64,000 bases of DNA from Candidatus Shapirobacteria bacterium (GTDB taxonomy: Bacteria > Patescibacteriota > Microgenomatia > UBA12405): contig JBAYIT010000001.1 in assembly GCA_041665485.1 (NCBI GenBank), positions 73,884 to 137,883 on the forward strand, written 5' to 3'. The translations under genes were made by a program, and so were the position numbers. Numbering within the stretch: the stretch's first letter is position 1; every line of letters begins with the position of its first letter. The notes under the pieces are model-generated. The model made no database searches and had not been told where the DNA came from. It worked only from the letters and a program-made list of their open reading frames with translations. This document shows, piece by piece, positions 2,236 through 51,614 of the stretch.

Positions 2236-3042
2236 TTAGTTTTCAAACACTCTCGATATCTCCCCGTAAACCTTAACCGACAGAGCCTCTTCCAAAAACT
2301 CGGAATCAAACTTTTTTACCTCGATCAACCGTCTTGCCTCATTTTTTGTCATCGATTTATTTTCGGTTAATCGATAATAGATAATTAGCCCTTCCACCAG
2401 TGAATTCTTGAGCTTTTGACTGCTATGCTGATATACGTACTGACGTAAAAATAAAGCCAAATCTTTAGTGTCAATCGGATCTGATAGCTTAATTAAATCA
2501 ATTAACACCGAGTTCGTTCTGGGAACGGGGTAGAATTTTTCTTTCCCCACTTCCATTAGCACTTTAACTTTAAAAAACGAACTAAAAACCCCATGTTCGT
2601 TGATAGTAGCCACCAGTTTCTTTGGTACCATTAGTACCACCCGGTCATAATTAATAAACGTCAAATGACCAAGCAATTGTTCGGCAAAAGAATATGGTAA
2701 ATTAGATACGATTTTGTTAAAGTCTTTCCCTTGTTTCCATCTTCCTCTTGGCAGAACGTGACCTCTGGCACTCTCAAAGTGGATTTCAACGTTGGTTGGC
2801 AAACCACTCAATATTGGCTCAAAATGCCTGTCTACCTCATAGGTAATAACCTTGCCCGCTTTAGTCGCCAACTCCCGGGTTAAATTACCAATTCCTGCTC
2901 CAATTTCCAATACCACATCATTCGAATTAATCTCTGCCATTTCAACTGTTTTCTTTATGATTTGGCTATCAGTCAGGAAAAACTGATCCAGCAAAGCATC
3001 GGGTGTAATTTTCCATTTACTTAATAACCTCTTTGCATCCAT
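2236..3042 (-). CDS. rRNA adenine N6-dimethyltransferase family (KsgA/Erm-like) paralog A
   Basis: SAM motif 'VLEIGAGIGNLT'. 'SNLPYSF' (NLPY-type motif IV). 'FYPVPRTNSVLIDL' (KsgA FxPxPKVDS-like). 'DQFFLTD' stands in place of the canonical GQNFL. Confidence 0.65.
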   Translation of the reverse strand: MDAKRLLSKWKITPDALLDQFFLTDSQIIKKTVEMAEINSNDVVLEIGAGIGNLTRELATKAGKVITYEVDRHFEPILSGLPTNVEIHFESARGHVLPRGRWKQGKDFNKIVSNLPYSFAEQLLGHLTFINYDRVVLMVPKKLVATINEHGVFSSFFKVKVLMEVGKEKFYPVPRTNSVLIDLIKLSDPIDTKDLALFLRQYVYQHSSQKLKNSLVEGLIIYYRLTENKSMTKNEARRLIEVKKFDSEFLEEALSVKVYGEISRVFEN

Positions 3043-11919: not shown

Positions 11920-14097
11920 TCAAAAAAGTCCCAACTGGTTTTCACAATTAATTTTCTTTTTAGCTGGACTAAAAATTTTATTTAGTCCCAAAGTTCGGTA
12001 AGTTCGTAAACGTTTGAAATACATAATTTTAAGCATTGGTACTTGATCATCAAAATAGTCATAAATCGTAGCGTTGGTTTTTCCCTCAAAACTTCGTTGA
12101 ACTCTACCCACATATTGGATTAGTTTTCCTTTCCACGAAAACGGAAAAGCTAAAAATAGATGTGACACTGCCGGCCAATCAAAACCTTCGCCGATTAATT
12201 TACCCGTAGCAATTAGTAGTTAAAATTGTTTTTGGTTAATTCGTTTAGCAATTCGTTCTCTCTGCTTTTTAGTCATCACTCCAGTAGCTATGGCAGCCTG
12301 AACACCTTTAGTTTATTGTCGAATGAGATCCAGTAGTGTGTGACAGTGGTCGAGACGTTCAGTTAATACTAAGCACTTAGCTCCGGTATTTAACGCATCG
12401 ATAATATCGTCAGTAATTTGATTGTTACGATCAGGGTCGGATATAACTAATCGACAGGCTTCTTGAAAATCTTCTAATTTTACATTAGCTTTAAACTGTG
12501 TTTTTCGAGTGATTAAATCGGTTTTTACGATTTGGTTGGAGTTTTCACTGTTATCAATATTTTCCGTAGTTGCTTTGACTATTTGATAGCTAACATACAA
12601 AAACATCAGTTTTTCTAATTTATCTTTACGATAAGTGGTGGCGGTTAATCCTAAAACATGTTTAGAAGGGAATTGTCTGACGACAGTACTAAAAGTATTG
12701 GCCGGGGCATGATGGCATTCGTCAATAATAATTAACCCAAAATCATTTTTAATTTCATCAACCCCTCGTCTGGATAAAGTCATGTAGGAAGCAATGGTTA
12801 CTTTTTTACCAACACTCCATTTGTTATCGCCAATAATGCCTATATCAAGTTTTGAAAGAGAAAAATAATCAGTAATTCGTTTTTGCCATTGATGGAGCAG
12901 AGTGTTAGTGTGAACAATAATTAAAGTTTTTTGACCCAGTTTTTTCATTAACGCTAGAGCGACCATAGTTTTACCAAAACCAGGTTGAGCTTCCAAAATA
13001 ACTCGGTCATGAGGTAGTAACTGATGTAAAACTTGTTTTTGATCTTTACGAAGGATCAGTTTAGACGGGAAACGTACTTGTTTTGTAGTTACTCGATTAT
13101 CAACAGCCTCGATTTTTATCTGTTCTTTTTGACAAAATTTATTTAGTTTTTCCAAAAATCCCAAAGGAACTCCTATTCCATCTGGCAATCTCTCGAGGGT
13201 TTTAATAAATCGAGGGGTGTTCCAAGTGGAATAACCAAATCGTTCTTTGGTGTAAAAGTCAGGGTTGGGAAAATTTAATTCTTTTTTGAGGTATTTATAC
13301 AGTTTGTCGGGTAAATGAGTGCTAGGAATAAATATGTTTGACCCTAAAATCAATTTAGTTTCTTGATTTTGAGTTGTGGTAACAGGTAGCTCTTCAACAT
13401 TTTCATCGGGCTGGTTAGGCAGATCGTCGATTGTTTTATTGCTGGATAGTTGAAGATATTGATTGATTTCTTGTAAAGATGTTCTTCGAATTGACTGTAG
13501 ATATTGCCATTGATCAGGAATCTCTTGACCATCTGAGTTAATAAAAACGGTTGTGTTGTTTGTGACAAATTTCCCATTAAGTGGCAAACAAATTAAATTT
13601 CCATAACCTTTACCGGTATGTTCATCTTGGCTGGGAAACATTCGATCAAATGTTTTTCGATCTTGGACTCCTGCCTGGTTTAATAGTAATTTACCCATTT
13701 GTCGGGCTAGATGAGCCGGAATTTGCCCGTTAAAGAAAAACCAGACATGACCACCATTGCCCGATTTTGACCGTTCTATGGCACAAAATAGATCATTGTT
13801 AAAAGCTTTAATGGTTACTTTTTGAGCCAAAATCAACCAATCTGGTCCGTCAAAATCGATGGCTAAAAAAGTAGTGGTGTTGTCTGGAAATAATGGATAA
13901 ACGCCAATTACCTGTTTTCCGTCTAAGTGTGATTGAATAACCGAATCTGTCAATGCTAAGGGGCTTTGATTTAGTCGAAAAACTGGAGCGTAACCAGACT
14001 TCTTCTTCGGTAAATCTTCCCAATAACGGGCAAAGACATCGTCTCGGGTGTCAAAGAGAGAACGATAAAGTTTAATATTTTCAGCCGAAATGCTCAT
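11920..14097 (-). pseudogene. primase-polymerase (AEP) / SF2 DExH helicase fusion, disrupted by two in-frame TAA codons
   Basis: N-terminal AEP motifs 'LAIDFDG', 'SKSGNGGHVWFFF' and 'ICLPLNGK'. Helicase motif I 'QPGFGKTM', motif II 'DECHH', motif VI 'QYVGRVQR' and 'LLIATGKLIGEGFDWP'. A single frame runs from 14097 to 11920 and is interrupted only by TAA at 12313-12315 and 12220-12222. Confidence 0.6.
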
Positions 14098-15625: not shown

Positions 15626-15697
15626 GCGCCCATAGTTCAATGGATAGAATGGTTGTTTGCGGAACAATTGATCCAGGTCCGATTCCTGGTGGGCGTA
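15626..15697 (+). tRNA. tRNA-Arg(GCG): tRNA-Arg (anticodon GCG as read)
   Basis: Manual cloverleaf. Acceptor GCGCCCA/TGGGCGT, D-stem GTTC/GAAT, anticodon stem GTTGT/ACAAT, loop TTGCGGA, T-stem CCAGG/CCTGG with T-loop TCCGATT (C at position 55), discriminator A. Confidence 0.7.
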
Positions 15698-16962: not shown

Positions 16963-17046
16963 GGAGGGTTGGCCGAGTGGTTCATGGCGCACGCCTCGAA
17001 AGCGTGTGGGTGAAAGCCCGCAGAGGTTCAAATCCTCTACCCTCCG
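16963..17046 (+). tRNA. tRNA-Ser(CGA): tRNA-Ser (anticodon CGA)
   Basis: Acceptor GGAGGGT/ACCCTCC, anticodon stem CACGC/GCGTG with loop CTCGAAA, long variable arm, T-arm AGAGG-TTCAAAT-CCTCT. Confidence 0.8.
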
Positions 17047-17048
17047 CC

Positions 17049-17090
17049 TTCGTCCCGACAAAGTCGGGACTTCGGCGGACAATGTCCGCA
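17049..17090 (+). terminator. two consecutive GC hairpins after the tRNA
   Basis: GTCCCGAC-AAA-GTCGGGAC followed by GCGGAC-AAT-GTCCGC. Confidence 0.4.
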
Positions 17091-23478: not shown

Positions 23479-23513
23479 CAGTTAACAGTTACGAGTTATC
23501 GGTTACGAGTTGA
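23479..23513. repeat. heptamer tandem array (CAGTTAA CAGTTAC GAGTTAT CGGTTAC GAGTTGA)
   Basis: Five degenerate 7-mers directly after the clpB stop. A near-identical array lies at 63362-63389. Confidence 0.6.
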
Positions 23514-23544: not shown

Positions 23545-23632
23545 GTCTCCGTAGTTCAATGGACCCGCCTACGTTGAAACTTCGGCGGGCAAGTAGAATA
23601 GACTACAGAGGCAGAAGCTAACTTGGACAAGT
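23545..23632 (+). other. partial duplicate of the 5' 28 nt of tRNA-Arg(CCG), interrupted by a 30-nt GC hairpin
   Basis: GTCTCCGTAGTTCAATGGA-[CCCGCCTACGTTGAAACTTCGGCGGGCAAG]-TAGAATAG matches the tRNA 5' end at 23633 (GTCCCCGTAGTTCAATTGGATAGAATAG), then diverges. Confidence 0.55.
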
Positions 23633-23706
23633 TGTCCCCGTAGTTCAATTGGATAGAATAGTGGCCTCCGAAGCCATTGATTCGGGTTCAACTCCCGACG
23701 GGGATA
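23633..23706 (+). tRNA. tRNA-Arg(CCG): tRNA-Arg (anticodon CCG)
   Basis: Acceptor GTCCCCG/CGGGGAT, anticodon stem GTGGC/GCCAT with loop CTCCGAA, T-arm TCGGG-TTCAACT-CCCGA. Confidence 0.8.
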
Positions 23707-23709
23707 CTG

Positions 23710-25825: not shown

Positions 25826-26001
25826 AAATAATAAAAAATAAGGCAAGATCCCCGAGAGAGGGTGTTTTGTCTTTAGCAGGTAGGTTCAAGGTTAAGAATC
25901 CGCTACGAGCCGAAGAAATCAGAAGTCAAGTTGATTGTCTTTGGTTTGAAAAATACAAGACTAATTAGCCTAAAGATTTGATAAAATAGGCTACATCTTT
26001 G

Positions 26002-26077
26002 GAGAAGTCGCACCCGCCTTCGCCAATGGCTTCGGCCGGGCGCAGTAGTGATTCATTGCAAGATGGTTTAACAATTT
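26002..26077 (+). other. partial duplicate of the 5' 27 nt of tRNA-Ser(GGA), interrupted by a 33-nt GC hairpin
   Basis: TTTGGAGAAGTCGCA-[CCCGCCTTCGCCAATGGCTTCGGCCGGGCGCAG]-TAGTGATTCATTGCA, where the tRNA at 26078 reads TTTGGAGAAGTCGCATAGTGGTTCATTGCA. Confidence 0.55.
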
Positions 26078-26165
26078 GGAGAAGTCGCATAGTGGTTCAT
26101 TGCACAGACCTGGAAAGTCTGCGTCCCACAAGGACTCGCGAGTTCGAATCTCGCCTTCTCCGCCA
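26078..26165 (+). tRNA. tRNA-Ser(GGA): tRNA-Ser (anticodon GGA), CCA encoded
   Basis: Acceptor GGAGAAG/CTTCTCC, anticodon stem CAGAC/GTCTG with loop CTGGAAA, long variable arm, T-arm CGAGTTCGAATCTCG, 3' GCCA. Confidence 0.8.
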
Positions 26166-26169
26166 AATT

Positions 26170-27012
26170 ATGTCAAATTCTCAAGGAATTGATTTTTGTT
26201 TATCTCTAAAATTCGGTATGTCATTGAGCATTGTTGCTCGTAAACTTGATCATTTACATGCTGATATAGAATCCTCCTTGATGATGCATAACTTATACGA
26301 GTCATTTAATCCAGAAAACAACAAAACCTACTTTGATGGAAACAAAGAAAGATTAACACAGAGACTACACGATCAGATAACAGACATAAATAGTTTGATT
26401 CGTTTTAATAACAAGTTTATTGCGTTCATTCCGCTAAAACAAAGAATCGTCGTATTGAGTTGGAAGACATTTAGAGAAGTAATAAATGAAAGATTCGAGA
26501 ACAAACTAAGAGATCAAAAGTCTCAAGAATTAGCAAATGAAAATTTAAGATTAAAACTTCAACAACTAGTACAGTTTACACAGAAATCTGTCACAGATTT
26601 TATATCGCATTTAGATGAAGAGAAAAGATTCGAAAAAATTAAATCAATAGGCAAGAAATATGTTAACGGAGTTGATGAATCAATTGATCTATTTTCTTGT
26701 GGATTTTACAATATTTCAATTTTTATAATGGGAAAGACAATTGAATCTGTGATAAATGATCTGCTAAAAAAACTAATAAAAACAAGGAAGATTGAAAATC
26801 TCAATTTAGACGAAGTGAAATATAAAGACAAAATAGGAATATTAAAAGGTTCTAAGTTAATAAATGAAAAGCTATTTCTTGACCTGAATGTAGTCAGGAT
26901 TGACCGCAATTATATTGGTCATCCGTCTCGTAAAAACTTCTCGAGGAATGAGAATAAAATAGCAATAAGCAAAGGATTGTTATTGATAAATGAATTGCAA
27001 AAGAAATTATAA
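26170..27012 (+). CDS. hypothetical protein (coiled-coil rich)
   Basis: The ORF continues upstream through the tRNA. The plausible start is ATG 26170 ('MSNSQGIDF'). No motif recognised. Confidence 0.45.
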   Translation: MSNSQGIDFCLSLKFGMSLSIVARKLDHLHADIESSLMMHNLYESFNPENNKTYFDGNKERLTQRLHDQITDINSLIRFNNKFIAFIPLKQRIVVLSWKTFREVINERFENKLRDQKSQELANENLRLKLQQLVQFTQKSVTDFISHLDEEKRFEKIKSIGKKYVNGVDESIDLFSCGFYNISIFIMGKTIESVINDLLKKLIKTRKIENLNLDEVKYKDKIGILKGSKLINEKLFLDLNVVRIDRNYIGHPSRKNFSRNENKIAISKGLLLINELQKKL

Positions 27013-49272: not shown

Positions 49273-49833
49273 TTATTCGCGGCAACAGTCAAGAACTTTA
49301 CCGATAACACCACTTATTTTGCCCATAAAGTCGGATTTTTTGTAAGTGATGGGTGTTTCTTTGGGATCCAATCCCTCTAAATCTCCCTTTGACCCGTCGG
49401 GTGCCCGGGCAAGCGAGGGAGACTTAATCATGCCCAAATTAATACCCCAAAAGAGATTGTAGAGGTCGTAGGACTTTTTGAAGTAATCATAGGCCTTGGC
49501 GTTATCCCCTTTTGTTTGATGTTTAGTACCAACTTCCATTAAGCGCATCGAGGCGGCCAGGAGGTGTTTACTAATGCACCATTCTTCACCACCATAGTCT
49601 TTGATAATTTCCTTAAGAAGGTCGACTCGCATGCGACGAATGTCATTGATTAGGTCGTAATATTTGTTGTCACCAGTTTTGCCACCGGAAAAAAATAAGT
49701 GTTCTTCAATAGAAATCAAATTCATAATACCAATGGAGAGGTCCTCCCCGGAAGATAGGTCAAGTTTTTGGCCGGCTTCGGCACTTTTAACTTTATCCAT
49801 GAATTGCTGAAGGTCGAGGGTTTTTGGTTTCAT
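49273..49833 (-). CDS. hypothetical protein
   Basis: ORF convergent with pepF. No motif recognised. Confidence 0.4.
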   Translation of the reverse strand: MKPKTLDLQQFMDKVKSAEAGQKLDLSSGEDLSIGIMNLISIEEHLFFSGGKTGDNKYYDLINDIRRMRVDLLKEIIKDYGGEEWCISKHLLAASMRLMEVGTKHQTKGDNAKAYDYFKKSYDLYNLFWGINLGMIKSPSLARAPDGSKGDLEGLDPKETPITYKKSDFMGKISGVIGKVLDCCRE

Positions 49834-51074: not shown

Positions 51075-51584
51075 GGTTAGCAAAAGAACAAGACTGACGG
51101 GGAAAACGACTTTGGCATAGGGAAAAGGAGCGTAGCCTAGCTTCTTTTTAGTGTTGAGATAGGTGATGTTGCCAATAAGCATGCCTAGGAAACCCAGGAC
51201 TTGGCCGAAAATAATTTTGTCAATGCCAAGCAGTTTATTAGCGGAGTGGCCAGTTTGGCCGGTGGTAATAAAATAAGCAAGGGTGGTTAGAAGTAAGATT
51301 AGAGAAAGAAATATGGGTTTGGAAAAAATTTCCAATTTCCAATTTCCAATTTCTAATTTATTCAGTTTGGGAGCCAGCCAGAAGGCGAGGGCGGTGTTGA
51401 GGGCGGAGATCCAGATACTAACTAGAAGATCGTCAATGCCGAGTTTTTTGGCAATTAACATTCCCCCACCGACAGTAACGATACATACGGGGCACTGCGC
51501 CCCTACGGGGGGCGCAAGAAATAAGAAATAAGAAATAAGAAATAAGAATGAAAACAAAAATATCATAGAGTTATTGTAATACAT
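51045..51584 (-). CDS. hypothetical membrane protein (start uncertain)
   Basis: Several TM segments. The N-terminal 50 codons run through simple repeats and GC hairpins, so the real start may be an internal Met. Confidence 0.35.
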   Translation of the reverse strand: MYYNNSMIFLFSFLFLISYFLFLAPPVGAQCPVCIVTVGGGMLIAKKLGIDDLLVSIWISALNTALAFWLAPKLNKLEIGNWKLEIFSKPIFLSLILLLTTLAYFITTGQTGHSANKLLGIDKIIFGQVLGFLGMLIGNITYLNTKKKLGYAPFPYAKVVFPVSLVLLLTLAFKFAFNL

Positions 51585-51600
51585 GTTCCCGAAGGCGCCT
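51573..51600. terminator. perfect 28-nt palindrome ATGTTCCCGAAGGCGCCTTCGGGAACAT (hairpin)
   Basis: Perfect inverted repeat 15 nt downstream of the Cys-rich mini-ORF stop, read on the minus strand. Confidence 0.5.
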
Positions 51601-51614
51601 TCGGGAACATCTGG

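What the first reader, a model, noticed from the sequence alone, without database searches (positions are those of the whole stretch)
26002..26077. tRNA-Ser(GGA) preceded by a partial 5' copy, with a homologous 33-nt hairpin insert
TTTGGAGAAGTCGCA[CCCGCCTTCGCCAATGGCTTCGGCCGGGCGCAG]TAGTGATTCATTGCA duplicates the tRNA 5' end. This includes 3 nt of 5' flank and extends 15 nt past the insert, which sits at the D-loop. The insert aligns with the one at 23564-23593. An upstream hairpin TAGCCTA-N15-TAGGCTA (25960-25988) is also present. The supplied ORF (25999-27012) runs straight through both the copy and the tRNA, so its first ~55 codons are not coding.
Basis: seen in the sequence. Interest (0 to 1): 0.55.

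Follow-up and report, generated by a model that had tools for sequence, protein, structure and literature searches.

The report
Hairpin insertion scar upstream of tRNA-Ser
A small GC-rich hairpin element landed in the front part of a tRNA gene of an uncultured CPR bacterium, and a local duplication left a dead, hairpin-bearing 5' fragment just upstream of an intact gene; the same pattern recurs at other tRNAs and in other organisms.

Summary
Positions 25998-26012 and 26046-26060 copy the 3 flank bases plus nt 1-27 of tRNA-Ser(GGA) (29 of 30 bases identical). A 33-nt hairpin at 26013-26045 splits the copy between tRNA nt 12 and 13.

The hairpin belongs to a family with a CCCGCC/GGCGGG outer stem, a TTC/TTC internal loop and a variable inner stem. 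The window holds three copies, and all three touch tRNA genes.

Six related Shapirobacteria lineages carry tRNA-Ser(GGA) at the syntenic site without hairpin or fragment, so the insertion is recent. In the sister Arg locus, the fragment sits where the ancestral tRNA sat, next to the promoter-like box.

The architecture [tRNA nt 1-12][hairpin][filler][intact tRNA] recurs in another Shapirobacteria species and at tRNA-Met, Lys and Ile in unrelated metagenome contigs. The same hairpin also lies in frame inside real protein genes (MnmA, RecA, PpsA, RNase HII).

Best reading: an RPE/REP-like palindromic insertion element, with the intact tRNA preserved by duplication of its 5' segment. The fragment is not a tRNA, an intron or an assembly artefact. 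The insertion mechanism and the mobilising enzyme are unknown. I found no published description.

The parts
25981..25990 (+). Promoter-like box ATAAAATAGG (pattern RTAAAATAGS), 10 nt upstream of tRNA position +1 of the partial copy. It overlaps the inverted repeat 25966-25972/25987-25993.
   Evidence: The pattern occurs 7 times in the window against 0.86 expected. The same box sits upstream of tRNA-Ser(CGA) and of the Arg partial copy, and directly upstream of the intact tRNAs in relatives. The simple sigma-70 scan did not flag it, so its role as a promoter is inferred.
25998..26012 (+). Partial copy, part A: 3 leader bases (TTT) plus tRNA-Ser(GGA) nt 1-12.
   Evidence: 15/15 identical to 26075-26089.
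26013..26045 (+). 33-nt GC-rich hairpin insert, CCCGCC-TTC-GCC AAT GGC-TTC-GGC(C)GGG-CGCAG.
   Evidence: Covariance model R1 hit at 26012-26045, 26.4 bits, E 4e-4. Predicted fold. Absent from the same site in relatives.
26046..26060 (+). Partial copy, part B: tRNA nt 13-27, with G to A at a D-loop GG position.
   Evidence: 14/15 identical to 26090-26104.
26061..26074 (+). 14-nt filler AGATGGTTTAACAA between the fragment and the intact gene. It resembles neither the tRNA nor the ancestral leader.
   Evidence: Read from the sequence. No counterpart in relatives.
26078..26165 (+). Intact tRNA-Ser(GGA).
   Evidence: ARAGORN and Rfam, 55.8 bits. Identical to the tRNA of relatives L338 and L340, which lack the insertion.
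26170..27012 (+). Real downstream gene (280 aa, no Pfam family). The annotated ORF start at 25999 is spurious.
23545..23601 (+). Sister locus. It holds a partial copy of tRNA-Arg(CCG): 23545-23563 = nt 1-20 (one T fewer), and 23594-23601 = nt 21-28. A 30-nt hairpin (23564-23593) splits the copy. A 32-nt filler and the intact tRNA (23634-23707) follow.
   Evidence: (50.3 bits).
17042..17084 (+). Third copy of the hairpin family, overlapping the 3' end of tRNA-Ser(CGA) (16963-17048).
   Evidence: fold z-score -5.2; 22.3 bits. Relative L338 has a different hairpin at the same place.

Best explanation
The upstream segment is a dead 5' fragment of the tRNA-Ser(GGA) gene, left by the insertion of a small palindromic element. 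A ~30-nt GC-rich hairpin entered the gene between nt 12 and 13. That hairpin belongs to a family with a conserved CCCGCC/GGCGGG clamp, a conserved TTC/TTC internal loop and a free inner stem. The event came with a duplication of the 5' part of the gene (leader -3 to nt 27), either made in the same event or selected afterwards. As a result a complete tRNA gene survives 14 nt downstream.

Shown here: the anatomy, the homology of the hairpins, the absence of the insertion in close relatives, the recurrence elsewhere, and the presence of the same hairpin in frame inside protein genes.

Inferred: the fragment now sits where the original gene start was, next to the promoter-like box. The tRNA would then be transcribed with a 77-nt hairpin-bearing leader that RNase P removes.

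Also inferred: the length of the duplication varies (none seen in the one ORF with an insert-free homologue, 12-15 nt or about 30 nt at tRNAs). This fits a copy-choice or template-switch insertion with a variable return point, filtered by selection for an intact tRNA, better than a transposase with a fixed staggered cut.

Not identified: the enzyme and the donor.
For: Duplication and insert. One hairpin family: three window copies at 0 expected, and covariance model hits of 50.3, 26.4 and 22.3 bits with nothing else significant in 64 kb.

Structure rather than sequence is kept in the inner stem. About 20 of 34 long inner segments form 4-7 further pairs with unrelated sequences. 56 of 74 distinct inner segments pair down to a loop, against a maximum of 43 in shuffles. 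L344 shows a G-C to T-A compensatory change in the outer stem.

Empty sites: L338/L339, L340, L341/L342, L343, L358/L359 and L360/L361 carry the syntenic tRNA-Arg(CCG) and/or tRNA-Ser(GGA) without hairpin or fragment. L341's leader TAAAATAGCGGGTAGTTTA|GTCTCCG matches the leader in front of the window's Arg fragment.

Recurrence: L344/L345 tRNA-Ser(GGA), L293 tRNA-Met, L324 tRNA-Lys, and L289 tRNA-Ile with two units. The inserted 103 nt of L293 and L324 are about 90% identical, while their 12-mers match their own different tRNAs.

tRNA association: all 3 window copies touch tRNAs. 9 of 120 metagenome copies lie within 150 nt of a tRNA, against about 1.4 expected.

In-frame copies in real genes: 15 of 41 AT-rich copies lie in long open frames, 10 of them read as PAEA(L/S/GY)AKAG. 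Pfam domains span the insert. MnmA shows a clean 10-residue insertion, and RecA carries one too.

Not a tRNA or an intron: no Rfam hit at E up to 10, and no tRNA emerges when the hairpins are removed.
Against: No transposase, RAYT or integrase was found near any copy, so mobility is inferred only from presence/absence and from the variety of contexts.

The hairpin sequence is almost identical in genes whose proteins are only about 47% identical, and across contigs from 29% to 73% GC. That points to constraint or ongoing homing rather than decaying junk.

Two Shapirobacteria lineages carry the insertion at the same tRNA position, while closer relatives lack it. This needs either strong site preference or repeated precise loss.

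Some GC-rich matches may be chance coding sequence.
Confidence: 0.65

Rival explanations
1. Two separate steps. An ordinary tandem duplication of the tRNA 5' region arose first. A hairpin then inserted into the redundant upstream copy, which has since decayed.
For: The window fragments keep tRNA nt 13-27 after the hairpin. ORF copies of the hairpin show no flanking duplication, so the hairpin itself need not create one.
Against: L293 and L324 share one 103-nt insert flanked by exactly 12 nt of their own, different tRNAs. This is hard to obtain from independent duplications. All seven or eight events have the hairpin in the upstream copy, mostly at nt 12/13. No hairpin-free tandem 5' duplication was seen among the 88 tRNAs surveyed.
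Confidence: 0.15
2. A functional leader module. The tRNA-derived 12-mer plus hairpin scaffold would act as an RNA: a processing or stability signal, a tRNA mimic, or a guide-like RNA that directs the element or a nuclease to tRNA genes.
For: The layout is recurrent: a target-identical 12-15 nt directly 5' of a conserved hairpin, at different tRNAs and in different organisms. The hairpin nucleotides are strongly conserved. In the window it is probably transcribed from the tRNA promoter box.
Against: It is absent from the closest relatives, which have an identical tRNA. In L344 the promoter box lies between the fragment and the intact gene, so the fragment is not in the same transcript position. 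No partner protein is known. The same hairpin sits inside ORFs, where a leader function makes no sense.
Confidence: 0.12
3. A scar of a tRNA-targeting integrative element: attL/attR core duplication followed by loss of the island.
For: Partial tRNA gene fragments are a known product of integrative elements (PMC9897764).
Against: Only 14-32 nt separate the copies. There is no integrase nearby. The 5' end, not the 3' end, is duplicated. The hairpin family also occurs in ORFs and next to many different tRNAs. It would have to have happened twice within 2.5 kb, with the same hairpin both times.
Confidence: 0.04
4. An intron-containing or split tRNA gene, or an assembly artefact.
For: Patescibacteria do carry introns in tRNA genes (PMC13011429).
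Against: Removing the hairpin yields no tRNA. There is no covariance model hit. The fragment ends at nt 27. Three independent assemblies are identical.
Confidence: 0.02

Closest known systems
Rickettsia palindromic elements (RPE; Ogata et al. 2000, cited from my own knowledge)
   Same: GC-richer palindromic inserts in an AT-rich reduced genome. They are found in frame inside protein genes and in RNA genes, with no transposase of their own and a patchy distribution between relatives.
   Different: RPEs are about 100-150 bp and confined to Rickettsia. This hairpin is about 30-45 nt, with a conserved clamp, a mismatched TTC/TTC loop and a free inner stem. It occurs in CPR-like and in GC-rich contigs. 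At tRNAs it comes with a duplication of the gene's 5' end.
REP / BIME / REPIN elements mobilised by RAYT transposases (from my own knowledge)
   Same: Short imperfect palindromes. GC-rich metagenome copies occur as inverted doublets like REPINs. Some copies act like terminators after genes.
   Different: There are only 3 copies in 64 kb here. There is no 5' GTAG in the REP position. No RAYT gene was found. REPs are species-specific, whereas this sequence is shared across very different GC contents. REPs are intergenic, whereas this element also sits in ORFs and tRNA genes.
Partial tRNA gene fragments left by integrative elements (PMC9897764)
   Same: A non-functional piece of a tRNA gene sits next to an intact gene and can mislead annotation.
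   Different: Those fragments are usually 3' pieces separated from the gene by kilobases of island with an integrase. Here a 5' piece lies 14-32 nt upstream and carries a hairpin.
Group I introns in Patescibacteria tRNA genes (PMC13011429)
   Same: Intervening sequence inside tRNA genes of the same phylum.
   Different: Those are self-splicing introns of hundreds of bases in otherwise complete genes. Here the interrupted copy is truncated and cannot give a tRNA.
Mitochondrial GC clusters and 'byp' elements of yeasts (from my own knowledge)
   Same: Short GC-rich hairpins that invade AT-rich genomes, including coding regions.
   Different: They occur in an organellar, eukaryotic setting. byp elements are bypassed by the ribosome, whereas the frames here stay open and appear to be translated.

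Membership tests
tRNA (Rfam RF00005), applied to the upstream segment | A cloverleaf covariance model score at or above the gathering threshold of 29 bits. | tested here: not met
   No hit on 25998-26074 or 23545-23633, even at E up to 10. ARAGORN finds only the downstream genes.
Intron-containing tRNA gene | Removing the intervening sequence restores a complete tRNA. | tested here: not met
   Every hairpin was deleted in silico with variable ends, in 120 loci plus the window. No tRNA spanned a junction except trivial 3'-end overlaps.
REP/REPIN-RAYT | A short imperfect palindrome. | tested here: met
REP/REPIN-RAYT | Many intergenic copies per genome, often as inverted doublets. | tested here: inconclusive
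   The 64-kb window holds 3 single copies. Doublets were seen only in GC-rich metagenome contigs. The whole genome was not available.
REP/REPIN-RAYT | An associated RAYT (Y1 transposase) gene and a conserved GTAG 5' of the hairpin. | tested here: not met
   There is no recurrent neighbouring ORF family. GTAG appears only 3' of some copies, formed partly by the host sequence.
Rickettsia palindromic elements | In-frame insertion into protein-coding and RNA genes. | tested here: met
   Protein genes in metagenome relatives. tRNA genes in the window.
Rickettsia palindromic elements | Size of about 100-150 bp and sequence families specific to Rickettsia. | tested here: not met
   The element is 30-45 nt. 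The host is Candidatus Shapirobacteria.
MITE (DDE-transposase derived) | Terminal inverted repeats and a target-site duplication of fixed length. | tested here: not met
   The duplication varies: none seen in the ORF with an insert-free homologue, 12 nt in L293/L324, and 15 or about 30 nt in the window. Only the 6-bp clamp is inverted.
IS200/IS605-derived palindrome elements (PATE) | Subterminal hairpins, insertion 3' of a fixed tetranucleotide, no duplication, and tnpA/tnpB in the genome. | tested here: inconclusive
   The flanks show no fixed tetranucleotide. No tnpA or tnpB was seen nearby. A 14-nt identity to the ISDra2 omega RNA is probably chance.
Integrase att-site scar at a tRNA gene | An integrase or island between the duplicated tRNA segments. 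| tested here: not met
   The spacers are 14 and 32 nt. The neighbours are ClpC, MFS, YbaK and NUDIX.
Intrinsic terminator | A GC-rich hairpin followed by a T-run. | tested here: not met
   No T-run follows any of the three window copies. Some AT-rich viral and tRNA-Pro-linked copies do have one.

The most novel reading that the evidence does not exclude
The hairpin may be the visible part of an undescribed insertion system that targets the 5' part of tRNA genes (nt 12/13) across distant bacteria. It would keep the gene alive by re-copying its first 12-30 nt. The target-identical 12-mer directly 5' of the conserved hairpin may serve as a guide or homing signal. That would explain independent hits on the same tRNA in two lineages and the near-invariant hairpin sequence from 29% to 73% GC.
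Probability: 0.15. Interest if true: 0.85.

Novelty: new variant of a known kind. Interest (0 to 1): 0.6.

Why it matters
For annotation: the long ORF start is false, and the upstream piece must not be called a tRNA or a pseudogene of independent origin.

For biology: the finding exposes a family of about 30-nt palindromic inserts in CPR and other uncultured bacteria. These inserts enter essential genes (tRNAs, recA, mnmA, ppsA, rnhB) without killing them. In proteins they stay in frame. At tRNAs the 5' end is duplicated.

I found no description of the motif in the searchable literature. I found no convincing copy in 7.3 Gb of plasmids or 2.3 Gb of cultured phages.

If the mechanism is templated or guided, this would be a new way for selfish DNA to settle in streamlined genomes. 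The patchy presence also offers a fine-scale marker for strain history.

Tried and rejected
1. The genome-contig scan with ClpC returned mostly other phyla, because ClpC is too conserved. That scan was wasted.
2. Homologues of the MFS gene and of the 280-aa gene were not syntenic, or their contigs were cut.
4. Rfam at a permissive threshold gave no family for the hairpin, the fragments or the L293/L324 tail.
5. No recurrent ORF family lies near the hairpins. Hand inspection of upstream ORFs for TnpB gave only spurious GC-rich frames and one unrelated DDE transposase.
6. The ISDra2 omega RNA shares 14 nt with the 3' arm. It appears to lack the 5' arm, though this was judged from probe order and my own recollection. 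I treat the match as chance.
7. A fixed target tetranucleotide (TTAC-like) was considered, because several ORF copies follow TTTTAC. It is not general, and it is partly forced by the search pattern.
8. Viral scans for tRNA-anchored patterns and for the L293 tail found nothing.
9. The sigma-70 consensus scan did not flag the RTAAAATAGS box.
10. A DNA-uptake-sequence reading was rejected: only 3 copies in 64 kb, and the two arms are not the same word.

Full report
**What is in the window**

The window is a chromosome piece of an uncultured Candidatus Shapirobacteria (CPR/Microgenomates). Sources name it so for the MFS and NUDIX proteins. It lies on a 411-kb ENA contig, and the region is base-for-base identical in a JGI and a Logan assembly.

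ARAGORN and Rfam find four tRNAs, all on the + strand inside co-directional gene strings:
- Arg(GCG) at 15626
- Ser(CGA) at 16963
- Arg(CCG) at 23634
- Ser(GGA) at 26078

**Check of the observation**

The repeat finder gives these pieces:
- 25998-26012 equals 26075-26089 (TTTGGAGAAGTCGCA, 15/15).
- 26046-26060 equals 26090-26104 at 14/15. The only difference is G to A in the D-loop GG.
- Between the two halves lie 33 nt (26013-26045) that fold as a GC-rich hairpin.
- A 14-nt filler follows, and then the intact gene.

The insert therefore splits the copy between tRNA nt 12 and 13.

The Arg(CCG) locus has the same anatomy:
- 23545-23563 copies nt 1-20.
- A 30-nt hairpin follows (23564-23593).
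- 23594-23601 copies nt 21-28.
- A 32-nt filler follows, which includes an inverted copy of the tRNA 5' end (ACTACAGAGGC).
- The intact tRNA comes last.

The upstream inverted repeat is real but sits at 25966-25972/25987-25993. The ORF starting at 25999 is spurious. The gene starts at 26170.

**The hairpin is a family**

The motif CCGCCTWCG...CTTCGGC occurs three times in the window and never in 100 shuffles. The third copy overlaps the 3' end of tRNA-Ser(CGA) at 17042-17084.

A covariance model built from 27 canonical copies finds exactly these three in 64 kb (50.3, 26.4 and 22.3 bits) and nothing else significant. A mismatch-tolerant scan agrees. So all copies in the window touch tRNA genes.

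The architecture has four parts:
- a conserved outer stem, CCCGCC/GGCGGG
- a conserved, non-complementary 3x3 loop, T(T/A)C opposite TTC
- an inner stem-loop of free sequence and length
- a tail, usually C(A/G)AGT

**Relatives lack the insertion**

NUDIX homologues led to syntenic loci in other Shapirobacteria.
- Lineages L338/L339, L340, L341/L342, L343, L358/L359 and L360/L361 have tRNA-Arg(CCG) and/or tRNA-Ser(GGA) at the same places, with no hairpin and no fragment.
- L346-L355 and L356 likewise have a plain tRNA-Arg(CCG).
- The tRNA-Ser(GGA) of L338 and L340 is identical to the window's.
- In L341 the promoter-like box and leader (TAAAATAGCGGGTAGTTTA) run straight into the tRNA-Arg. In the window the same leader runs into the Arg fragment. 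At the Arg locus the fragment therefore occupies the ancestral start of the gene, and about 89 nt (Arg) or 77 nt (Ser) are extra.
- The box RTAAAATAGS is enriched in the window, 7 occurrences against 0.86 expected. A role as promoter is inferred, not shown.

**The architecture recurs**

A second Shapirobacteria species (L344, with an independent assembly L345) has this layout upstream of an intact tRNA-Ser(GGA):

GGAGAGGTCGGA | CCCTCCTTCGCTCGAACGGAGCTTCGGACGGGCGAAG | TAGTGGTATCCAC... filler

- The 12-mer matches that species' own tRNA.
- The outer stem shows a G-C to T-A compensatory change.
- The RTAAAATA box lies between the fragment and the gene. The event therefore differs from the one in the window.

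Among them:
- L293 (tRNA-Met), L324 (tRNA-Lys) and L289 (tRNA-Ile, two tandem units) show [tRNA nt 1-12][hairpin][50-70 nt tail][intact tRNA].
- L277 is a probable further case. Its downstream tRNA-like sequence is not called by ARAGORN or Rfam.
- The 103 inserted bases of L293 and L324 are about 90% identical, while the flanking 12-mers differ at 6 positions and match their own tRNAs. The 12-mer therefore comes from the target.
- 9 of 120 hairpins lie within 150 nt of a tRNA, against about 1.4 expected. Four abut the 3' end of tRNA-Pro in the opposite orientation, with a T-run.

**The same hairpin sits inside protein genes**

15 of the 41 AT-rich copies lie in long open frames. Ten of these read on the opposite strand as PAEA(L/S/GY)AKAG.
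- Pfam domains of RNase HII, MnmA and PPDK/PpsA span the insert.
- MnmA shows a clean 10-residue insertion relative to a homologue.
- RecA carries one as well.
- No flanking duplication is visible in MnmA, the one case with an insert-free homologue.
- The inner stems covary strongly.

No transposase or other recurrent gene accompanies the copies. AT-rich viral contigs carry the hairpin followed by T-runs.

The motif has no convincing match in PLSDB plasmids or in cultured phages. I found no paper containing it, apart from a probably fortuitous 14-nt identity in the ISDra2 omega RNA.

**What it is not**

- Rfam finds no tRNA or other family in the fragments, even at E up to 10.
- Deleting hairpins in silico never restores a tRNA, so they are not introns of complete genes.
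- The spacing of 14-32 nt and the neighbouring genes (ClpC, MFS, YbaK, NUDIX) exclude an integrated island.
- Three independent assemblies exclude an artefact.

**Interpretation**

The best-supported reading is a small palindromic insertion element, closest in behaviour to Rickettsia palindromic elements and to REPs. It hit the D-arm of two tRNA genes in this strain. The intact gene was preserved because the 5' segment was duplicated.

The duplication length varies: none seen in the ORF with an insert-free homologue, 12 nt, 15 nt, or about 30 nt with the hairpin inside. The Arg filler contains an inverted copy of local sequence. For these reasons I favour a templated, copy-choice type of insertion whose outcomes are filtered by selection, over a fixed staggered cut. 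This step is inference.

Also inferred: transcription from the box at 25981-25990, and removal of the 77-nt leader by RNase P.

Unresolved points:
- why the hairpin sequence is so strongly conserved across very different genomes
- why the same tRNA position is hit repeatedly
- which enzyme does it

These points keep open a more novel reading, in which the 12-mer plus hairpin acts as a homing or guide module.

**Limits**

- Only 64 kb of this genome could be read.
- The metagenome scan was truncated and pattern-biased.
- The taxonomy of the metagenome contigs was not determined.
- Some GC-rich matches may be chance coding sequence.

Noticed in passing
window 17042-17084; L338 2946-2995 and 10386-10430: The hairpin after tRNA-Ser(CGA) shares its 5' arm with the tRNA 3' end (CCGCC). 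Relative L338 has a different hairpin of the same build (GCAACGTAAT-inner stem-AAACGTTGC) at the same place after both tRNA-Ser genes, with conserved flanks (GGACAATGTCCGC). It looks as if one hairpin cassette replaced another.
   Followed up: partly
window 16938, 23525, 25981, 26954, 45705 (+); 29405, 38044 (-): The box RTAAAATAGS occurs 7 times against 0.86 expected. It lies 8-21 nt upstream of tRNAs in this genome and in relatives. It is probably an extended -10 element of the lineage, and the sigma-70 consensus scan misses it.
   Followed up: partly
metagenome loci L219, L224, L225, L252, L282, L302, L326, L329, L330: The same ~30-nt hairpin lies in frame inside RecA, PpsA/PPDK, RNase HII, MnmA and other real genes of AT-rich contigs, mostly read as LPAEA(L/S)AKAG. 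Two MnmA genes only about 47% identical in this region carry nearly identical hairpin DNA at the same position.
   Followed up: partly
L293 2576-2678 and L324 1973-2076: A 103-nt unit (hairpin plus a tail with a second perfect hairpin, GCTCCGAT-GTAT-ATCGGAGC) is about 90% identical in front of tRNA-Met and tRNA-Lys. Each copy is flanked by exactly the first 12 nt of its own tRNA.
   Followed up: partly
L289 4923-5135: Two tandem units of [12-mer + hairpin + tail] precede tRNA-Ile(TAT). Their flanks are about 90% identical, but the inner stem-loops of the two hairpins are completely different, so the inner part turns over fast.
   Followed up: no
window 12313-14097 (-) and about 12000: A gene with an AEP-TOTE primase domain fused to a helicase lies on the minus strand. 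GC skew changes sign here, from about -0.1 to about +0.3, and almost all genes downstream are on the + strand.
   Followed up: no
window 15699, 23710, 26170: Protein genes start 1-5 nt after the 3' end of a tRNA, with no terminator between them. The tRNAs seem to be co-transcribed with the downstream mRNAs. Three of the four tRNAs lack an encoded CCA.
   Followed up: no
window 51487-51518, 51519-51550, 51586-51609: Other GC-rich palindromes: GGGGCACTGCGCCCC, and the perfect 24-nt palindrome GTTCCCGAAGGCGCCTTCGGGAAC. They flank a tandem repeat of (AAATAAG) x4-5. The palindrome shares CGCCTTCGG with the hairpin family.
   Followed up: no
window 49392-49414 (+) and 2850-2880 (-): Weak covariance model hits (about 11.5 bits, E about 1) of the form ACCCG...CGGGCAAG. 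The first lies inside an ORF on the minus strand. They may be decayed or divergent relatives of the hairpin.
   Followed up: no
window 23480-23507; L341 about 410-450: A tandem 14-nt repeat, AGTTAACAGTTACG / AGTTATCGGTTACG, lies just after the ClpC stop codon. It is conserved in relative L341.
   Followed up: no
window 23580-23591 vs 23662-23673: The hairpin 3' arm CTTCGGCGGGCA is 83% complementary to the anticodon stem-loop of the adjacent tRNA-Arg(CCG) (TGGCCTCCGAAG). This is probably chance, because CTTCGG is constant in the family.
   Followed up: no
L277 990-1450: Two tandem tRNA-like genes (GGAGAGGTGCCAGAGTGGTTGAA...) carry long internal insertions and are not called by ARAGORN or Rfam. 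A hairpin-bearing 5' fragment lies between them.
   Followed up: no
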